A stretch of 64,000 bases of DNA from a virus. Lineage: Duplodnaviria; Caudoviricetes. The position numbers were made by a program, and so were the translations under genes. Shown here in pieces: positions 4,726 through 61,138 of the stretch; positions within the stretch are counted from its first letter, which is position 1; each line of letters starts with the position of its first letter. The notes beneath the pieces were generated by a model. That model saw only the letters and a program-made list of their open reading frames with translations. It was not told where the DNA came from and made no database searches. The DNA is taken from the IMG/VR virus record IMGVR_UViG_3300033075_000403, positions 10,165-74,164 of that record; one strand, written 5' to 3'.

Positions 4726-5693
4726 CACAGAGCAACCCTCCACCGTGCAGGCTTGGTCGCTTTCACTGCCACACCGTCTTTCACGAGCTTGTTGAGGGTG
4801 GAACGCACCGATTCCACGTTCTCGTTCTGGATTCCGCTGGCGATCTGTTCCAGGGTAGACCAGTCTCGTTGCTTGGTGAGGAAGTTCCTGATGCGTGTCC
4901 TCATGTCGTCGAGGATGTCTTCCCCTGGGTCCGACATCTCCCACCAAGTACAGGTCTGTGGATCGAACCTCACGGAGAGTACTTTCTCCTCAACGTCCCT
5001 GCCGGTGACGCTCAACTTGCCGTCGTTTGCCATTCGAGGTCGCTCCAGAACCATGTTGGTGTCGGTGGTTCCTGTGAGTCCGTTGGTCCCGCTGGATTTC
5101 TCGTGGATGTCCTCCGCGATCCCTTTACGAGTGTGGTGAACCAGCAAGATCGGACACTTGCCATGGTCGGCGATCTTCTTGATCTCCCCAACATAGTGCG
5201 AGTCCGCGTTGTAGTTCTGACTGTTACCGGACAGTTGAGGACGAAACCTTCCCCACACGTCGATGACGCATAGCCGGGGATTGCTGGCAGCGGAGATCCA
5301 TTCCCTGAGAGACTCGAAACCACCCTCGTGCAAGAGCGGACTATCCGTGACAAGGAAGAACCGACTCACGTTGTCACCCATCCCCATCGTGGGGAGAACC
5401 TTGAGTACACGATCCTTGATTCGTCTCTCCTGATCCTCAAGAGCAAGGTAAAGAACGTCTCCCTGCTCGACCTGACGTGTACCGAGGGCTTTTCCACCCA
5501 TTGCAACGGCGAGTGCGATTCCAAGACTCATCCACGACTTCCCCATCTTGGGAGCGCCGGACAGAAGACTCACTCCCTCACAGAGCAATCCGGGTACAGC
5601 CCACTTGGGAGGAGGTAGATCCGTGGTCATCGTTTCAGAAAGGCACTTTGCTTTGAAGCGTTTCTCCTGCCGTGGTTTGCCGACTTTCGGCAT
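4725..5693 (-). CDS. AAA_25 / RepA-family replicative helicase with C-terminal winged helix
   Basis: Walker A GAPKMGKS, VLYLALED, Walker B LCVIDVW, ILLVHHTRK; start MPKVGK after GGAG. Confidence 0.88.
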   Translation of the reverse strand: MPKVGKPRQEKRFKAKCLSETMTTDLPPPKWAVPGLLCEGVSLLSGAPKMGKSWMSLGIALAVAMGGKALGTRQVEQGDVLYLALEDQERRIKDRVLKVLPTMGMGDNVSRFFLVTDSPLLHEGGFESLREWISAASNPRLCVIDVWGRFRPQLSGNSQNYNADSHYVGEIKKIADHGKCPILLVHHTRKGIAEDIHEKSSGTNGLTGTTDTNMVLERPRMANDGKLSVTGRDVEEKVLSVRFDPQTCTWWEMSDPGEDILDDMRTRIRNFLTKQRDWSTLEQIASGIQNENVESVRSTLNKLVKDGVAVKATKPARWRVAL

Positions 5694-54340: not shown

Positions 54341-54520
54341 ATGCTTGTGCTTGCACGGAAGGAGCATCAGACCATCCTCATCGGAGAGGGGAAGAACCGC
54401 ATTGTGGTGACGGTCCTTGAGATTAACCACATGGGGCAGGTACGTATCGGAATCGAGGCACCGAAGGACGTGTTGATCCTGCGGGCAGAACTGGAGCATC
54501 GAGAAAAGGAAAGGAATTGA
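54341..54520 (+). CDS. csrA: carbon storage regulator CsrA/RsmA (59 aa, missed by the ORF track)
   Basis: MLVLARKEHQTILIG...IVVTVLEI...QVRIGIEAPKDVLILRAEL. Confidence 0.92.
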   Translation: MLVLARKEHQTILIGEGKNRIVVTVLEINHMGQVRIGIEAPKDVLILRAELEHREKERN

Positions 54521-56853: not shown

Positions 56854-57686
56854 TGCCACCCGTGGCGAAAACAAGTCCGAATGTGAAACCCAAACCAACG
56901 GGTGGTCCCAAGTCCGCCTGGGACATGCTCGACAGCCTGAAGATGCTGGTGTACGGCAGGTCCGGTACGGGGAAGACCACGTTCTGGTCCACCTTCCCAG
57001 GACCGATCCTCACGCTCGTGTGCAGTGGTGGGAACCGTCCTGGGGAACTGAAGTCAATCGACACCGAGGAGATGCGGGAGAAGGTCACTCCGACCATCAT
57101 CGACAGCACGGATCAGATTCGTGACGCCATCGCAAGTTTCGATGGAGAAGGCACTTTGGTGCTGGATCACGCATCGGGGCTGGCTGACCTTGCCTTGAAG
57201 GAGATTCTCGGTATCAAGGAGTTGCCCGCTCAGAAGGGTTGGGGGCTGGCCACGCAGCAGCAGTACGGCCAATGCACGCTTCAGTGCAAGGAGATCATGC
57301 GGAGTATCCTCGGCAAGTCATGCAACGTGGTGATTGTGGCCCAGGAGCGTACCTTTGGCGATGCGGAGAGTGGTGGGTCAGACACCGGCATCCAGCCTAC
57401 GGTGGGACCGGCACTGTCGCCGTCACTGGCGGGATGGTTGGCACCTGCCTGCGACTATGTGGTGCGGACGGAGATCCGGCCCAGGTCCGAGAAGGTCGAG
57501 CAGAACTTGCTCGGCAAGAAGACGACGACATGGAAGATCGTCCCCGGCGAGTATGAGTACGTCATGCGGGTTGGCCCACACCATACCTTTCAGACGAAAT
57601 TCCGCAAGCCTCGTGGCGTGGCGATGCCAGAGGTGATCGTGGACCCTGATTACAACAAGGTGCTTGCTCTGGTGAAGGGCGAGTAG
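56850..57686 (+). CDS. AAA_24 / Sak4-like ATPase
   Basis: LVYGRSGTGKTT, LVLDHASG, VVIVAQE, CDYVVR. Confidence 0.85.
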   Translation: MMPPVAKTSPNVKPKPTGGPKSAWDMLDSLKMLVYGRSGTGKTTFWSTFPGPILTLVCSGGNRPGELKSIDTEEMREKVTPTIIDSTDQIRDAIASFDGEGTLVLDHASGLADLALKEILGIKELPAQKGWGLATQQQYGQCTLQCKEIMRSILGKSCNVVIVAQERTFGDAESGGSDTGIQPTVGPALSPSLAGWLAPACDYVVRTEIRPRSEKVEQNLLGKKTTTWKIVPGEYEYVMRVGPHHTFQTKFRKPRGVAMPEVIVDPDYNKVLALVKGE

Positions 57687-57717
57687 GATTCATTTTCTCA
57701 AACGACAGGAGCAACAG

Positions 57718-58773
57718 ATGCAGACCGGCAGTAGCGAATTGTTCAAGGCCCTTGGCGCGCAGCTCAGTGCTGCCCATGCGGAAGCAGCCAACGCGGAAAC
57801 CACGATGCCCATGATGGACCTCCCCGGAGGTATCAAGGGCGGCATCGCACAGGTGGTGGAGTGCAAGTTCGACAAGTACAAGGAAGGTGACAACAAGGGC
57901 AAGTGGTACTTCTACTGCGCCGCCGTGGTGATCGAACCGAAGACCCATGAAGGACGGAAGGTGGAGGGACTCCGCACGTCGATCATGGAACCGATGTGCG
58001 AGACTCCCAGCCGCAAACGGGCGACGATTGAGGCGCACATGCACTACGTCTACAACGAGTTCCGCAAACTCGGCGTGGACACGCGGGAGATCAGCCCCGA
58101 CCAGCTGGAAGACGTGGCCGCTCACATCAAGGCGGCGAAGCCCATCATCGGGTTCTCGACCAGGCTCGGCAAGGCGACTCCACAGTACCCCGACCCCAAG
58201 GTGTTCGAGCAGTGGGAGGGTCTGGTGCAGTACGGGGATCATGCCGACGATGAGGTGAACGACAACACCCCTGACCCGGAACCGACTCCCGCACCACCGC
58301 CGCCCACTCCCAAGGCGACGAAGCCGAAGGCGGCACCCAAGGCAACCCCAGCGCCGACGCCGCCACCCCCTCCCCCGGTGGCAGAGTCCAAACCGGAACC
58401 GACCCTCGACGACCTCGTGGCGGTAGCCAGTGGAGTGCAGGGGGATGAGGCGACGGAGGCTCAGTCCGCACTCACGGAGAAGGCCAAGTCTCTCGGCGTG
58501 TCGGAGGAATCCATCCAGAACGCCGATGACTGGCAGGCGGTGGCCGATTTGATCGTGACCGCCGAGGCCAACGCGGACCTGCTAGTGTGGCAGGCAGGGG
58601 ATGTGTGCAAGCACGCCCCGCTCCTTGACAAGAAGACGAAGAAGCGGGGGCCGGAAGCCCTGTTTGCGATCACGGCGGTGGACGAGAAGGCGAAGACGGC
58701 CAACCTCAAGGGGGTTGACGACGCCAAGGTGTCCTACGCCAAGGTGCCGTGGAGCGAACTGCGCGAACAGTAG
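57718..58773 (+). CDS. ssDNA-binding-like protein with Pro-rich linker and extra C-terminal domains
   Basis: OB-fold-like N-terminus after the Sak4-type gene; PTPAPPPP linker; SH3/KOW-like end. Confidence 0.55.
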   Translation: MQTGSSELFKALGAQLSAAHAEAANAETTMPMMDLPGGIKGGIAQVVECKFDKYKEGDNKGKWYFYCAAVVIEPKTHEGRKVEGLRTSIMEPMCETPSRKRATIEAHMHYVYNEFRKLGVDTREISPDQLEDVAAHIKAAKPIIGFSTRLGKATPQYPDPKVFEQWEGLVQYGDHADDEVNDNTPDPEPTPAPPPPTPKATKPKAAPKATPAPTPPPPPPVAESKPEPTLDDLVAVASGVQGDEATEAQSALTEKAKSLGVSEESIQNADDWQAVADLIVTAEANADLLVWQAGDVCKHAPLLDKKTKKRGPEALFAITAVDEKAKTANLKGVDDAKVSYAKVPWSELREQ

Positions 58774-58815
58774 ACGGTTTGGGGAGCCGCCTGTCCTGCT
58801 CGATGGGCGGCATTC

Positions 58816-58896
58816 GACGCAGTAGCTCAGTGGCAGAGCAGCCGATACACAGGTAGGACAGTCGGTTGGTCGCAGGTTCGATTCCTGCCCGCGTCA
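58816..58896 (+). ncRNA. tRNA-like RNA 1 with 16-nt anticodon loop
   Basis: acceptor GACGCAG/CCGCGTC (one mismatch), D arm GCTC-AGTGGCA-GAGC, stem GCCGA/TCGGT, T arm GCAGG-TTCGATT-CCTGC; no CCA directly after the discriminator. Confidence 0.75.
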
Positions 58897-58928
58897 TTCC
58901 AGTAGATACTCGTGTCTGACCGAGTGGT

Positions 58929-59041
58929 AGTGTCGGAGTTCGTTGGTAGAACACCCGAACGGTTGAGCGGTTGCATCGCATGATGCGGTGATGAACAGGC
59001 TACAAGTTCGGTCTGTGCGGGTTCGATTCCCGCCGACACTT
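58929..59041 (+). ncRNA. tRNA-like RNA 2 with 45-nt insert in the anticodon arm
   Basis: perfect acceptor AGTGTCG/CGACACT, D arm GTTC-GTTGGTA-GAAC, stem CCGAAC/GTTCGG, T arm GCGGG-TTCGATT-CCCGC. Confidence 0.75.
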
Positions 59042-59074
59042 TTTAACAGCAACATACACAAGGAGGAACACCCA

Positions 59075-61138
59075 TTGAGACGTATCGCGTTCGACACCGA
59101 GACGACGGGGCTGGACCTGCGACATGGGGCAGCCCCCTTTTTCGTCACCACCTGTGATGAGCATGGAGTGCAGCGCTGGTGGGAGTGGGATGTGGACCCG
59201 CTCACCCGTCAGGTACAGGTGCCAGCGGAAGGACTCCAGCAAGTTCTCGACCTGATCGAGAGTGCCGACCAACTGGTTCTCCACAACGCCAAGTTCGACG
59301 CCACCGCGATGCTGGCTATCGCGCCGGACTTCGAGTGGCCGTGGCACAAAACCGTGGACACCCTGGTGGCGGCGCATCTACTGGCGAGTAATCGACCGAA
59401 GGACTTGACTTCGCTTGCGATGATGTACCTCAGTACGGACATCTCCAAGTACGAGAAGGCAGCGGTCAAGGCGGCGAACGAGGCACGGTCCCTTGCTCGG
59501 CGAGAGCATAAGGACTGGATGATCGCAAAGGAAGGCTTGCCCTGCATGCCCTCGGCCAAGACCGAGGTGTCTCGGATGGACTATTGGCTTCCGCGTGCCT
59601 TGGCGGGCCATCTGGAGTACGAGAAAGGACATCCGTGGCACACGGTCCTGCAGGACTACGCCAACATCGACACGGTGGTGACGATGCGACTCTGGCACGT
59701 CATGGATGCGGAGATCAAGCGTCGTTGCCAGGACAAGATTTTTAAGGTACAGAACGAACTCACCGAATCCATCTTTGAGATGGAGCGCAGAGGGGTAACG
59801 GTGTCGGTGCCGTCGCTACGGAGCATGCGTGAGTCACGCAAGAAGGAGTCCGAGCTTCAGGGAAGACGGTGCCGGAACATCGCGAAGGTCCACGGGTACA
59901 ACCTCGATCTTCCGAAGGCCGGCGTCAATGATTCGATGCGGTCGTTCATCTTCGATGTGTTGAAGATGCCTGGCATTGTGAACCAGAAGGCCAAGACGGA
60001 TAAGCCGACGCTCAACTCGGCAGCGCTGGAAAAGTACGCCGAGGACAGTAGCCCACGCAGTACGGTAGGTCTATTCTTACGATCCCTCATCAAGAAACGT
60101 GACGTGGACACCGAGGTGGCTTTCCTCGATGCCTACGAGCGGTTCATGCTTGATGAGAGGGATGGGTACGCAACGCTCCACCCAAACTTCAACGGGTGTG
60201 GTACGGACACCCTGCGGTTCTCCTGTCAAAATCCCAACGGGCAGAACATCAAGAAACCGGAGGAAGGAGAGTTCTCGGTACGAGCGTGTTTTGGACCAGC
60301 GCCGGGTAGGGAGTGGGTAGCGAAGGATGCCAAGAACATCGAACTGCGCATCCCGGCCTATGCTTCCGGTGAGAAGGACCAGATCGCCCTGTTCGAGAAC
60401 CCCAACGATCCCCCCTTTTACGGTAGCAACCATCTGCTCAACTTCTCGGCAGTTTATCCTGACCTGTGGGAGAAGGCGGTTGCGGAGCATGGGCTGGGGA
60501 AGGCGGGTCCGTGGTGCAAGAAGCATCTGTCGTCGTCGTGGTATCAGTGGTGCAAGAATGGCGCGTTCGCCAAACAGTACGGCGGGGGAAAGCGAACGGT
60601 AGACAAGGCTTTCCACAGGTCGGGGAGTTACGAACTCCTCGGCAATCGTTTCGACAAGCTCGAAGCGCTCAACCAGCGGTGCATCAACGACGCCAAGACG
60701 AAGGGGTTCATCGAGACGGTTCCCGATTCCAGTGTTGACCCGGAACGTGGGTATCCGTTACTCTGTGGCCGAACCGAGAGCGGTGGCGTGCTTACCACGA
60801 CGCCCCTCAACTACTTCTCGTCGGGATCGGCGATGTGGTGGATGCGGCGAGCGATGGCTCGGTGCCACACTCAACTGAAAGTGTGGAGGAAGGAGGGATT
60901 CGACGGGTTTATCACGCTCCAGGTGCATGACGAATTGATTTTCGACTTCCCGAAGACTGAGGTATCACCACTAGACGAACTGGATTTGCCGGTGGGGGAA
61001 AAGGGAAAGTCCAACCTGTGGCGCATGCGTGTTCTCAAGGATCTCATGGAGCAGGGGGGCAGAGACATGGGGATTCCGCTCCCTGTGTCGATCAACTACC
61101 ACCCCAATAACTGGGGAGAGGGTTTTTCCATCGCATAG
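59075..61138 (+). CDS. polA: family A DNA polymerase with 3'-5' exonuclease
   Basis: ExoI FDTETTG, ExoII HNAKFD, ExoIII YANID; TDTLRFSCQNPNGQNI, motif A DAKNIELR, motif B K...F...YG, motif C QVHDEL; TTG start after AGGAGG. Confidence 0.95.
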   Translation: MRRIAFDTETTGLDLRHGAAPFFVTTCDEHGVQRWWEWDVDPLTRQVQVPAEGLQQVLDLIESADQLVLHNAKFDATAMLAIAPDFEWPWHKTVDTLVAAHLLASNRPKDLTSLAMMYLSTDISKYEKAAVKAANEARSLARREHKDWMIAKEGLPCMPSAKTEVSRMDYWLPRALAGHLEYEKGHPWHTVLQDYANIDTVVTMRLWHVMDAEIKRRCQDKIFKVQNELTESIFEMERRGVTVSVPSLRSMRESRKKESELQGRRCRNIAKVHGYNLDLPKAGVNDSMRSFIFDVLKMPGIVNQKAKTDKPTLNSAALEKYAEDSSPRSTVGLFLRSLIKKRDVDTEVAFLDAYERFMLDERDGYATLHPNFNGCGTDTLRFSCQNPNGQNIKKPEEGEFSVRACFGPAPGREWVAKDAKNIELRIPAYASGEKDQIALFENPNDPPFYGSNHLLNFSAVYPDLWEKAVAEHGLGKAGPWCKKHLSSSWYQWCKNGAFAKQYGGGKRTVDKAFHRSGSYELLGNRFDKLEALNQRCINDAKTKGFIETVPDSSVDPERGYPLLCGRTESGGVLTTTPLNYFSSGSAMWWMRRAMARCHTQLKVWRKEGFDGFITLQVHDELIFDFPKTEVSPLDELDLPVGEKGKSNLWRMRVLKDLMEQGGRDMGIPLPVSINYHPNNWGEGFSIA

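What the first reader, a model, noticed from the sequence alone, without database searches (positions are those of the whole stretch)
58786..59041. Tandem tRNA-shaped RNAs with oversized anticodon arms directly upstream of polA
Both elements have proper acceptor, D and T arms (GGTTCGATTCC T-loop, GG in the D-loop, 5-nt variable region), but the anticodon loop is 16 nt in RNA1 and a 45-nt insert with its own hairpin (GCATC-GCAT-GATGC) in RNA2. Neither has CCA directly after the discriminator. They share ACAGG..ACA(A)G(T)TCGGT on the 3' side of the enlarged arm, so the expansion looks conserved rather than decayed. Each is preceded by a hairpin (58786-58811; 58908-58925), and RNA2 ends about 20 nt before the polA RBS. 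Removing 58961-59000 from RNA2 would give a canonical loop CU-ACA-AG (Cys), but no excision gives U33 in RNA1. Hypotheses (inference): decoys for host anticodon nucleases or uncharged-tRNA sensors; tRNA scaffolds displaying a protein- or RNA-binding loop (RNA1 loop has AGGA, a CsrA-type site); RNase P/Z punctuation marks that process the polA mRNA; or tiny-intron tRNAs.
Basis: partly seen in the sequence, partly recalled or inferred. Interest (0 to 1): 0.85.

Follow-up and report, generated by a model that had tools for sequence, protein, structure and literature searches.

The report
Two anticodon-less tRNA look-alikes before polA
An uncultivated 74-kb phage carries, between its SSB-like gene and its DNA polymerase gene, two RNAs that keep the body of a tRNA but have lost a readable anticodon loop; related phages do the same in many different ways, so the tRNA shape itself, not decoding, seems to be what is kept.

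Summary
RNA1 (58816-58896) scores 53.4 bits on Rfam tRNA. RNA2 (58929-59041) is missed by Rfam. A tRNA-body model built only from related phages finds just these two in the 64-kb window (58.5 and 38.5 bits). The anticodon loops are 16 nt and 45 nt.

RNA1 is a remodelled tRNA(CAU). Its body matches cellular tRNAs that all carry the loop CTCATAA, and normal CAT tRNAs sit in the same slot in related phages.

The claimed shared loop motif is not above chance and occurs in no other viral contig. GGA (CsrA) sites are not enriched. I found no splicing enzyme, Ro protein, group I intron or tmRNA features.

Across the polA clade, the same gap holds about 15 tRNA-shaped genes with differently disrupted anticodon arms, against about 5 normal tRNAs. 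Their body stems are intact and covary.

Best reading (about 0.4): these are non-decoding tRNA-derived RNAs, cut from the operon transcript by RNase P and RNase Z, like plant mitochondrial t-elements. Rivals are decaying pseudo-tRNAs, trans-acting tRNA mimics and intron-bearing tRNAs. No expression data were available.

The scan has noted similar non-decoding tRNA look-alikes in jumbo phages. Published precedents are the Lak phage 'enigmatic introns' and T4 RNAC/RNAD. I class it as a new variant of a known kind.

The parts
57718..58773 (+). Upstream gene p351, probably an SSB-like protein: OB-like N-terminal domain, disordered linker, Tudor/SH3-like C-terminal domain. Its stop codon lies 12 nt before the hairpin.
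   Evidence: No Pfam or PHROG hit. Homologues lie in the same exo-Sak4-p351-polA order in relatives. AlphaFold pLDDT 84; weak fold matches to PrgE/OB and Tudor domains.
58786..58811 (+). Stable 10-pair hairpin without a T-run, ending 4 nt before the 5' end of RNA1. Inferred to cap the 3' end of the upstream mRNA after RNase P cleavage.
   Evidence: -17.1 kcal/mol, z -4.06. Not called as a terminator. In relatives a hairpin plus T-run abuts the 5' end of the slot tRNA or tRNA look-alike.
58816..58896 (+). RNA1: tRNA(CAU)-derived cloverleaf with a 16-nt anticodon loop (58846-58861), discriminator A, no CCA.
   Evidence: Rfam tRNA 53.4 bits. Clade model 58.5 bits. The body pattern hits 67 cellular tRNAs, all with loop CTCATAA.
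58929..59041 (+). RNA2: tRNA-shaped RNA with a 45-nt insert (58961-59005, inner hairpin 58973-58986) on a 6-pair anticodon stem. It has G8/G14, discriminator T, then TTTT.
   Evidence: Strict scan, 0.04 expected per shuffled genome. Clade model 38.5 bits, E 4e-9. Fold.
59060..59077 (+). polA ribosome-binding site AAGGAGG (59060-66) and TTG start (59075).
   Evidence: Read from the sequence. Homologues align from residue 1-4 of this start.
59075..61138 (+). Family A DNA polymerase with a 3'-5' exonuclease domain.
   Evidence: Pfam DNA_pol_A and DNA_pol_A_exo1; PHROG 17.

Best explanation
RNA1 and RNA2 are tRNA-derived RNAs that no longer decode. RNA1 descends from the tRNA(CAU) gene that occupies the same slot in related phages.

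The gap has no promoter or terminator, so both are inferred to be transcribed as part of the p351-polA operon RNA. Their intact acceptor/T/D body is then recognised by host RNase P at the 5' end. At the 3' end, RNase Z is the likely enzyme, because the genes lack CCA and carry a pyrimidine-T trailer.

Cutting them out would do three things:
- leave the upstream mRNA ending in the 58786-58811 hairpin;
- give polA a short leader of about 34 nt;
- release two stable tRNA-shaped RNAs.

Only the tRNA body is needed for this, so the tip of the anticodon arm is free to change.

Shown here: the tRNA descent, the non-canonical loops, the lack of promoter or terminator consensus, and the clade-wide pattern. 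Inferred: transcription, cleavage and any effect on polA expression.
For: - RNA1 and RNA2 are the only tRNA-body matches in the window, and RNA1 is the only Rfam tRNA in the genome.
- The RNA1 body matches cellular tRNAs that all carry CTCATAA. Canonical CAT or CCT tRNAs occupy the same p351-polA slot in L006/L070, L063, L067, L022 and L076.
- There is no promoter-like or terminator-like site at 57500-59500 other than a terminator-like hairpin at the Sak4/p351 junction (57661-57685), upstream of p351 and outside the gap.
- All 11 aligned slot elements lack CCA, and all have T at the second base after the discriminator. The further elements mostly keep this.
- Many have a hairpin, mostly with a T-run, abutting the 5' end, which leaves no room for a promoter of their own.
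- About 15 distinct elements in the clade keep perfect bodies while their anticodon arms are disrupted by -1 to about +90 nt in unrelated ways.
- In the class-II-like subgroup, body stems are 97.8% paired and 7 of 15 pairs changed on both sides, while the inserts cannot be aligned.
- Precedent: plant mitochondrial t-elements with the same GGTTCRANYCC motif direct RNase P/Z cuts that form mRNA ends (PMC1920247).
Against:
- A mere RNase P/Z signal needs only the acceptor and T arm, yet the D arm and a closed anticodon stem are also kept.
- Roughly half of the related phages have no tRNA look-alike in the slot, so polA expression does not depend on one.
- No orthologue of RNA1 or RNA2 exists to show purifying selection on these two genes themselves.
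- The body covariation in relatives could partly reflect independent captures of host tRNAs.
Confidence: 0.4

Rival explanations
1. Decaying pseudo-tRNAs. These would be former decoder genes, a tRNA(CAU) and a second tRNA, inactivated by changes in the anticodon loop and not yet deleted, with no function.
For: - The loops show no conservation.
- RNA1 has an A.C mismatch in the acceptor stem. RNA2 has lost U8, A14 and the 15-48 pair.
- Canonical orthologues exist in relatives.
- The fold energies of the enlarged arms are not unusual (z -1.5 to -2.2).
Against: - Phage genomes shed dead DNA quickly (my own knowledge). Yet the gap of about 300 nt consists almost only of these two elements.
- RNA2 keeps 7/7, 4/4, 6/6 and 5/5 stem pairs despite a 45-nt insert.
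- Non-canonical elements outnumber canonical ones about 15 to 5 across the clade, and their stems covary.
Confidence: 0.25
2. Trans-acting tRNA mimics. Once processed, the stable L-shaped RNAs would act on a host or phage protein that binds tRNA bodies. One possibility is as decoys or inhibitors of anticodon-arm nucleases. Another is as natural 'tRNA scaffolds' that display a fast-evolving hairpin.
For: - The whole L-shape is kept (D arm, G18G19, closed anticodon stem), which is more than RNase P/Z needs.
- The inserts are structured hairpins: RNA2 has GCATC-GCAT-GATGC and L012a has a GAAA-capped stem.
- The inserts vary greatly between relatives, as expected for arms-race loci.
- The elements are accessory, not universal.
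- Defence nucleases that attack tRNA anticodon arms, and phage tRNAs that counter them, are documented. See PMC11464382 and PMC12445682, listed (titles and abstracts only read).
Against: - No partner protein is identifiable. There is no Ro/TROVE, RtcB or RNA ligase, and p351 looks like an SSB.
- No antisense target in the phage genome exceeds chance.
- GGA sites are not enriched.
- No insert is conserved anywhere.
Confidence: 0.2
3. Intron-bearing decoder tRNAs. An 11-nt segment (RNA1) and a 40-nt segment (RNA2) would be removed to give tRNAs with anticodon ACA, as proposed for the 'enigmatic introns' of Lak megaphage tRNAs.
For: - Permissive ARAGORN calls both as tRNA-Cys(ACA) with introns. 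RNA2 then has the loop CU-ACA-AG and U73.
- Lak phages have tRNA genes with unexplained inserts (PMC6784885).
Against: - The same ARAGORN settings give about 1 hit per shuffled genome, 0.5 with inserts of 45 nt or less.
- RNA1 needs a shifted stem with no residue 26, and the insert position differs between the two RNAs.
- A34 in a Cys anticodon is not used by bacteria (my own knowledge).
- The body of RNA1 is of the CAU type, not Cys.
- There is no RtcB, RNA ligase or splicing endonuclease in the phage, and no group I intron hit.
- All 56 tRNA matches in two Gemmatimonadota genomes, a tentative host group, are 71-88 nt long.
Confidence: 0.07
4. A sponge or target for the phage's own CsrA, through GGA motifs in the enlarged loops.
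For: - The phage encodes CsrA at 54341-54505, in the same module. Relatives keep CsrA next to p351.
- The RNA1 loop contains AGGA.
Against: - The RNA2 insert has no GGA.
- Across 15 inserts, 17 GGA were seen against 18.5 expected, and 72% of shuffles reach the observed count.
Confidence: 0.03

Closest known systems
Plant mitochondrial t-elements (Forner et al. 2007, PMC1920247)
   Same: Non-canonical tRNA-like cloverleaves that keep the GGTTCRANYCC T-loop motif. They are embedded between genes in polycistronic RNA and are thought to direct RNase P and RNase Z cuts that create mRNA ends and release a stable small RNA.
   Different: Those are organellar and usually more degenerate, often lacking good D and anticodon arms. 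Here the whole L-shape is intact and only the tip of the anticodon arm is enlarged. The setting is a phage, and there is no experimental end mapping.
'Enigmatic introns' in Lak megaphage tRNA genes (Devoto et al. 2019, PMC6784885)
   Same: Phage tRNA genes carry unexplained inserts in the anticodon loop that are too short for group I introns, and no known bacterial mechanism removes them.
   Different: The Lak inserts leave a sensible tRNA once removed and are identical across cohorts. Here RNA1 cannot be restored in its natural register, and the only anticodon obtainable (ACA) is implausible. The inserts are also not conserved. This is a 74-kb phage with no other tRNAs.
Phage T4 RNAC and RNAD (species 1 and 2 stable RNAs)
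   Same: Stable small RNAs of unknown function (PMC9697503). That they are encoded among the phage tRNA genes and matured like tRNAs is from my own knowledge.
   Different: No sequence or structure comparison was made here. The T4 RNAs lie in a tRNA cluster, not inside a replication operon.
YrlA-type bacterial and phage Y RNAs (Chen et al. 2014, PMC4201824; Rfam RF02553)
   Same: Non-coding RNAs with a tRNA-like module (T arm, D arm, acceptor-like stem), some of them phage-encoded.
   Different: YrlA is circularly permuted relative to a tRNA, with its ends in the Ro-binding stem, and it comes with Ro60. Here the order is that of a normal tRNA. The Rfam score is 19.5 bits against a threshold of 69, and no TROVE protein is present.
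Canonical phage-encoded tRNAs (Rfam RF00005)
   Same: Same cloverleaf body. RNA1 passes the Rfam threshold and descends from a tRNA(CAU).
   Different: The anticodon loops are 16 nt and 45 nt instead of 7 nt, with no U33-NNN-R37 in register. RNA2 lacks U8 and A14.

Membership tests
tRNA (RF00005), functional decoder | Cloverleaf with 7-bp acceptor, D, anticodon and T arms, scoring above the curated threshold | tested here: met
   RNA1 scores 53.4 bits against a threshold of 29. RNA2 is not reported by Rfam, but scores 38.5 bits on the clade model.
tRNA (RF00005), functional decoder | 7-nt anticodon loop with U33 and a purine at position 37 | tested here: not met
   The loops are 16 nt (58846-61) and 45 nt (58961-59005).
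tRNA (RF00005), functional decoder | Conserved core nucleotides U8, A14, G18G19, T54-psi55-C56 and A58 | tested here: inconclusive
   RNA1 has all of them. RNA2 has G8, G14 and T15, but keeps G18G19 and the T loop.
tRNA (RF00005), functional decoder | CCA end and aminoacylation | not testable with these tools
   CCA is not encoded. Its addition and any charging need experiments.
Intron-containing tRNA (group I, archaeal BHB, or Lak-type) | Group I intron core inside the anticodon loop | tested here: not met
   No Rfam intron hit even at E up to 10. The inserts are 9-45 nt.
Intron-containing tRNA (group I, archaeal BHB, or Lak-type) | Splicing endonuclease and ligase available, with a bulge-helix-bulge motif | tested here: not met
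   The phage has no EndA, RtcB or RNA ligase. A permissive motif script gave only combinations that conflict with the cloverleaf. Host enzymes are unknown.
Intron-containing tRNA (group I, archaeal BHB, or Lak-type) | Removing one segment restores a canonical tRNA with a used anticodon | tested here: inconclusive
   RNA2 gives CU-ACA-AG. RNA1 does so only with a shifted stem. The chance rate is about 1 per genome.
YrlA / Y RNA | Match to the Rfam YrlA model and a Ro60 (TROVE) gene | tested here: not met
   19.5 bits against a threshold of 69. No TROVE gene.
tmRNA | tRNA-like domain without a D stem, G3:U70, and a tag reading frame | tested here: not met
   ARAGORN in tmRNA mode finds none. Rfam matches only the 17-nt T arm. 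Neither acceptor stem has G3:U70.
t-element-like processing signal | Non-canonical tRNA-like fold with GGTTCRANYCC, lying between co-transcribed genes | tested here: met
   Both RNAs have GGTTCGATTCC. No promoter or terminator consensus lies in the gap.
t-element-like processing signal | Cleavage by RNase P and RNase Z at the ends of the element in vivo | not testable with these tools

The most novel reading that the evidence does not exclude
A widespread clade of phages from soil, sediment and groundwater uses the tRNA body as a natural scaffold. The acceptor/D/T frame is under strict structural selection. The anticodon arm (and in L071 also the D loop) carries a fast-evolving structured insert that acts in trans, for example as a decoy or inhibitor of host tRNA-targeting defence nucleases. 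RNA1 and RNA2 would be two such cassettes.
Probability: 0.15. Interest if true: 0.8.

Novelty: new variant of a known kind. Interest (0 to 1): 0.5.

Why it matters
Phage tRNA genes are usually read as codon-usage helpers or as counters to anticodon nucleases. In this case a whole phage clade keeps tRNA bodies while repeatedly destroying the anticodon loop, and this phage has no decoding tRNA at all. That points to a use of the tRNA shape that has nothing to do with decoding.

If the use is RNA processing, it would be a bacterial-virus counterpart of mitochondrial tRNA punctuation and t-elements. If the RNAs act in trans, it would be a new class of phage small RNA.

It also matters for annotation. 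Such genes are missed (RNA2) or mislabelled as 'tRNA-???' or as intron-bearing tRNAs.

Tried and rejected
- Near relatives: none in GenBank phages, IMG/VR or metagenomes. The best polA identity is 48-56%, so there are no orthologues of RNA1 or RNA2. Exact-pattern scans for RNA1 and for the shared loop motif found nothing.
- Antisense targets of the enlarged arms in the phage genome: the longest complementary word is 10 nt, within the range of shuffles.
- CsrA/GGA enrichment: none.
- Loop similarity between RNA1 and RNA2: at chance level.
- Minus-strand ORFs over the region, and the in-frame extension 58988-59074: no credible family match. The only hit is one PHROG of unknown function at E 0.007.
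- p351 as an RNA enzyme or partner: its fold suggests an SSB-like protein, with only weak matches.
- The bulge-helix-bulge script was too permissive to be informative.
- Papers: I found none describing this RNA or anticodon-less tRNA look-alikes in small phages.

Full report
**Setting.** The window is bases 10165-74164 of a 74,164-nt IMG/VR virus record that CheckV rates complete. The finding lies in a gap of about 300 nt between two genes. Upstream is a 351-aa gene (57718-58773). Downstream is a family A DNA polymerase (RBS 59060-66, TTG start 59075). Further upstream on the same strand are CsrA (54341-54505), an HNH endonuclease, a PD-(D/E)XK exonuclease and a Sak4-like annealing protein. 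Downstream are dCTP deaminase and ThyX. The 351-aa protein has no family hit. Its model (pLDDT 84) shows an OB-like N-terminal domain and a Tudor/SH3-like C-terminal domain, with weak matches to the plasmid SSB-like PrgE. I read it as an SSB-like protein, not an RNA enzyme.

**The observation.** RNA1 (58816-58896) is a clean cloverleaf. The exceptions are one A.C mismatch in the acceptor stem and a 16-nt anticodon loop. It scores 53.4 bits on Rfam tRNA, and ARAGORN calls it 'tRNA-???'.

RNA2 (58929-59041) is missed by both programs in default mode. It has a 7/7 acceptor stem, a 4/4 D stem with GG in the loop and a perfect GGTTCGATTCC T arm. Its 6-pair anticodon stem closes a 45-nt insert with its own hairpin.

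Two independent tests show RNA2 is not chance:
- A strict body scan finds it as the only hit in the genome, with 0.04 expected per shuffled genome.
- A covariance model built from eight elements of related phages, without the window's own sequences, returns exactly two hits in 64 kb. These are RNA1 (58.5 bits, E 3.5e-15) and RNA2 (38.5 bits, E 3.7e-9).

RNA2 deviates from real tRNAs at U8, A14 and position 15. Neither gene encodes CCA. The hairpin at 58786-58811 is strong. The one at 58908-58925 is not.

**Origin of RNA1.** I searched one genome per prokaryote species with the D-proximal base, anticodon stem, variable loop and T stem of RNA1, leaving a free 7-nt loop. This gave 67 hits. Most were Gemmatimonadota, with some Solirubrobacterales and Pirellulaceae. 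Every hit has the loop CTCATAA, so these are tRNAs with anticodon CAU. Their acceptor stems (GGGCCCG, with C4 and C5) resemble tRNA-Ile2 (my own knowledge).

Related phages carry canonical CAT tRNAs in the same p351-polA slot (L006/L070, L063, L067), or tRNA-Arg(CCT) (L022, L076). RNA1 is therefore a slot tRNA(CAU) whose loop was rebuilt. No CAT remains, and the change is not a simple insertion into CTCATAA.

**Are the enlargements conserved?** No. The shared ACAGG..ACA motif of the two loops is matched or beaten by 46% of shuffled loops in local alignment, and by 14% when anchored at the 3' end. The motif next to a T arm occurs in no other IMG/VR contig. No near relative of the phage exists in any collection searched, so orthologous loops cannot be compared.

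**The clade.** polA relatives at 38-56% identity come from soil, groundwater, sediment, digester and marine samples. They keep the order exonuclease-Sak4-p351-[gap]-polA. In or near that gap I found about 15 distinct tRNA-shaped genes with non-canonical anticodon arms:
- a 6-nt loop in L019;
- +3 nt in L046;
- a 21-nt loop in L002;
- a 34-nt loop with a GAAA-capped hairpin in L012a;
- 50-120-nt inserts in Leu-like class II bodies (L012b, L016b, L049, L071, L074b);
- others in L016a, L031, L043, L074a, L076a and L025.

Against these there are about 5 canonical tRNAs. In L071 a hairpin also sits in the D loop.

In the class-II-like group the body stems are 97.8% paired, and 7 of 15 pairs changed on both sides. 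No shuffle reached the observed values, although that control is not a probability. The inserts cannot be aligned at all. One caveat applies: some of this covariation may reflect separate captures of different host tRNAs.

The flanks are shared by canonical and non-canonical members:
- none encodes CCA;
- in the 11 aligned elements the second base after the discriminator is always T, and most of the others keep this;
- many have a hairpin, mostly followed by a T-run, ending 0-7 nt before the 5' end (most within 3 nt), so there is no room for a promoter of their own.

About half of the relatives have no such element, so it is an accessory feature.

**Readings tested and set aside.**
- *Introns.* Permissive ARAGORN labels both as tRNA-Cys(ACA) with 11-nt and 40-nt introns. 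The same settings give about one call per shuffled genome. RNA1 needs a shifted stem, and the insert positions differ. ACA is not a bacterial Cys anticodon (my own knowledge). The RNA1 body is of the CAU type. The phage has no RtcB, RNA ligase or splicing endonuclease. There is no group I intron signal. Two complete Gemmatimonadota genomes, a tentative host group, have only tRNA matches of 71-88 nt.
- *Y RNA.* YrlA scores 19.5 bits against a threshold of 69, and no Ro protein is present.
- *tmRNA.* No support.
- *CsrA sponge.* CsrA is present, but GGA is not enriched.
- *Antisense RNA.* No target in the phage genome exceeds chance.
- *Protein coding.* No support.

**Most likely mechanism.** The scan found no promoter or terminator consensus in the gap. 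The two elements should therefore be part of the p351-polA transcript. What is conserved, here and in relatives, is exactly what RNase P, RNase Z and the CCA enzyme read. That is the stacked acceptor and T arms plus the D/T-loop elbow. What varies is the part that only the ribosome and anticodon-reading enzymes need.

I therefore favour the view that these are non-decoding tRNA derivatives excised from the operon RNA. Excision would leave a hairpin-capped upstream mRNA and a short-leader polA mRNA. This is how plant mitochondrial t-elements are thought to work (PMC1920247). Everything beyond the sequence anatomy is inference. I put this at about 0.4.

The main rivals are:
- plain pseudo-tRNAs (0.25);
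- a trans-acting role for the released RNAs as tRNA mimics, decoys or scaffolds (0.2), which the fully kept L-shape, the structured hypervariable inserts and the accessory distribution make attractive;
- spliced decoders (0.07).

**Comparison with what is known.** The published relatives of the idea are Lak megaphage tRNAs with 'enigmatic introns' (PMC6784885), T4 RNAC/RNAD of unknown function (PMC9697503), YrlA (PMC4201824), and irregular tRNA-like polycistrons in soil metatranscriptomes (PMC7609411).

Earlier notes of this scan describe anticodon-less tRNA-shaped RNAs in several jumbo phages, so the scan has seen this general theme before on other DNA. Three things are new here:
- the small genome has no decoding tRNA at all;
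- the elements lie inside a replication operon;
- the slot is clade-wide, with canonical and disrupted forms side by side.

I class it as a new variant of a known kind, of moderate interest.

Noticed in passing
L012 693-834, L016 1010-1180, L049 160-306, L071 89-263, L074 1540-1642, L031 1143-1231: A family of tRNA-Leu-like (class II D arm, GTGGCGGAATTGGTAGACGC) phage RNAs. Unalignable stretches of 36-117 nt (including the anticodon and variable arms) lie between the D and T arms. L071 also has a hairpin inserted in the D loop. The body stems covary (7 of 15 pairs changed on both sides).
   Followed up: partly
window 54341-54505 (+); L076 1190-1423; L077 3245-3442: A phage-encoded CsrA is conserved inside the recombination/replication module of this clade. 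The polA RBS (AAGGAGGAA) contains GGA motifs that it could bind.
   Followed up: no
L006 about 2300-2324, L012 about 490-515, L019 about 1165-1206, L022 about 1895-1924, L076 about 5165-5202: In relatives, a terminator-like hairpin plus T-run ends 0-7 nt before the 5' end of the slot tRNA or tRNA look-alike, which implies expression by read-through. In the window the equivalent hairpin (58786-58811) has lost the T-run.
   Followed up: partly
L080-L146 (cellular genomes): The body of RNA1 is closest to tRNA(CAU) genes of Gemmatimonadota (about two thirds of 67 hits). Those genes also lack an encoded CCA. This is a weak hint at the host phylum.
   Followed up: partly
window 58988-59074 (+): The polA reading frame stays open for 29 codons upstream, through the 3' half of RNA2 (GTG 58988, ATG 58991). 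No RBS precedes these starts, and homologues start near 59075, so this is probably chance.
   Followed up: partly
L002 2749-2920: A small Cys-rich ORF with a DnaJ-like CxxCxGxG zinc-finger motif lies directly after the tRNA look-alike and before polA. L077 has a similar Cys-rich start in the same gap.
   Followed up: no
L077 4602-5032 (= L078 3345-3648): A 430-nt non-coding gap after p351 ends in a T-arm-like GCGGGTTGAATCCCCGC followed by a T-rich run. It may be a heavily expanded tRNA look-alike that all the detectors missed.
   Followed up: no
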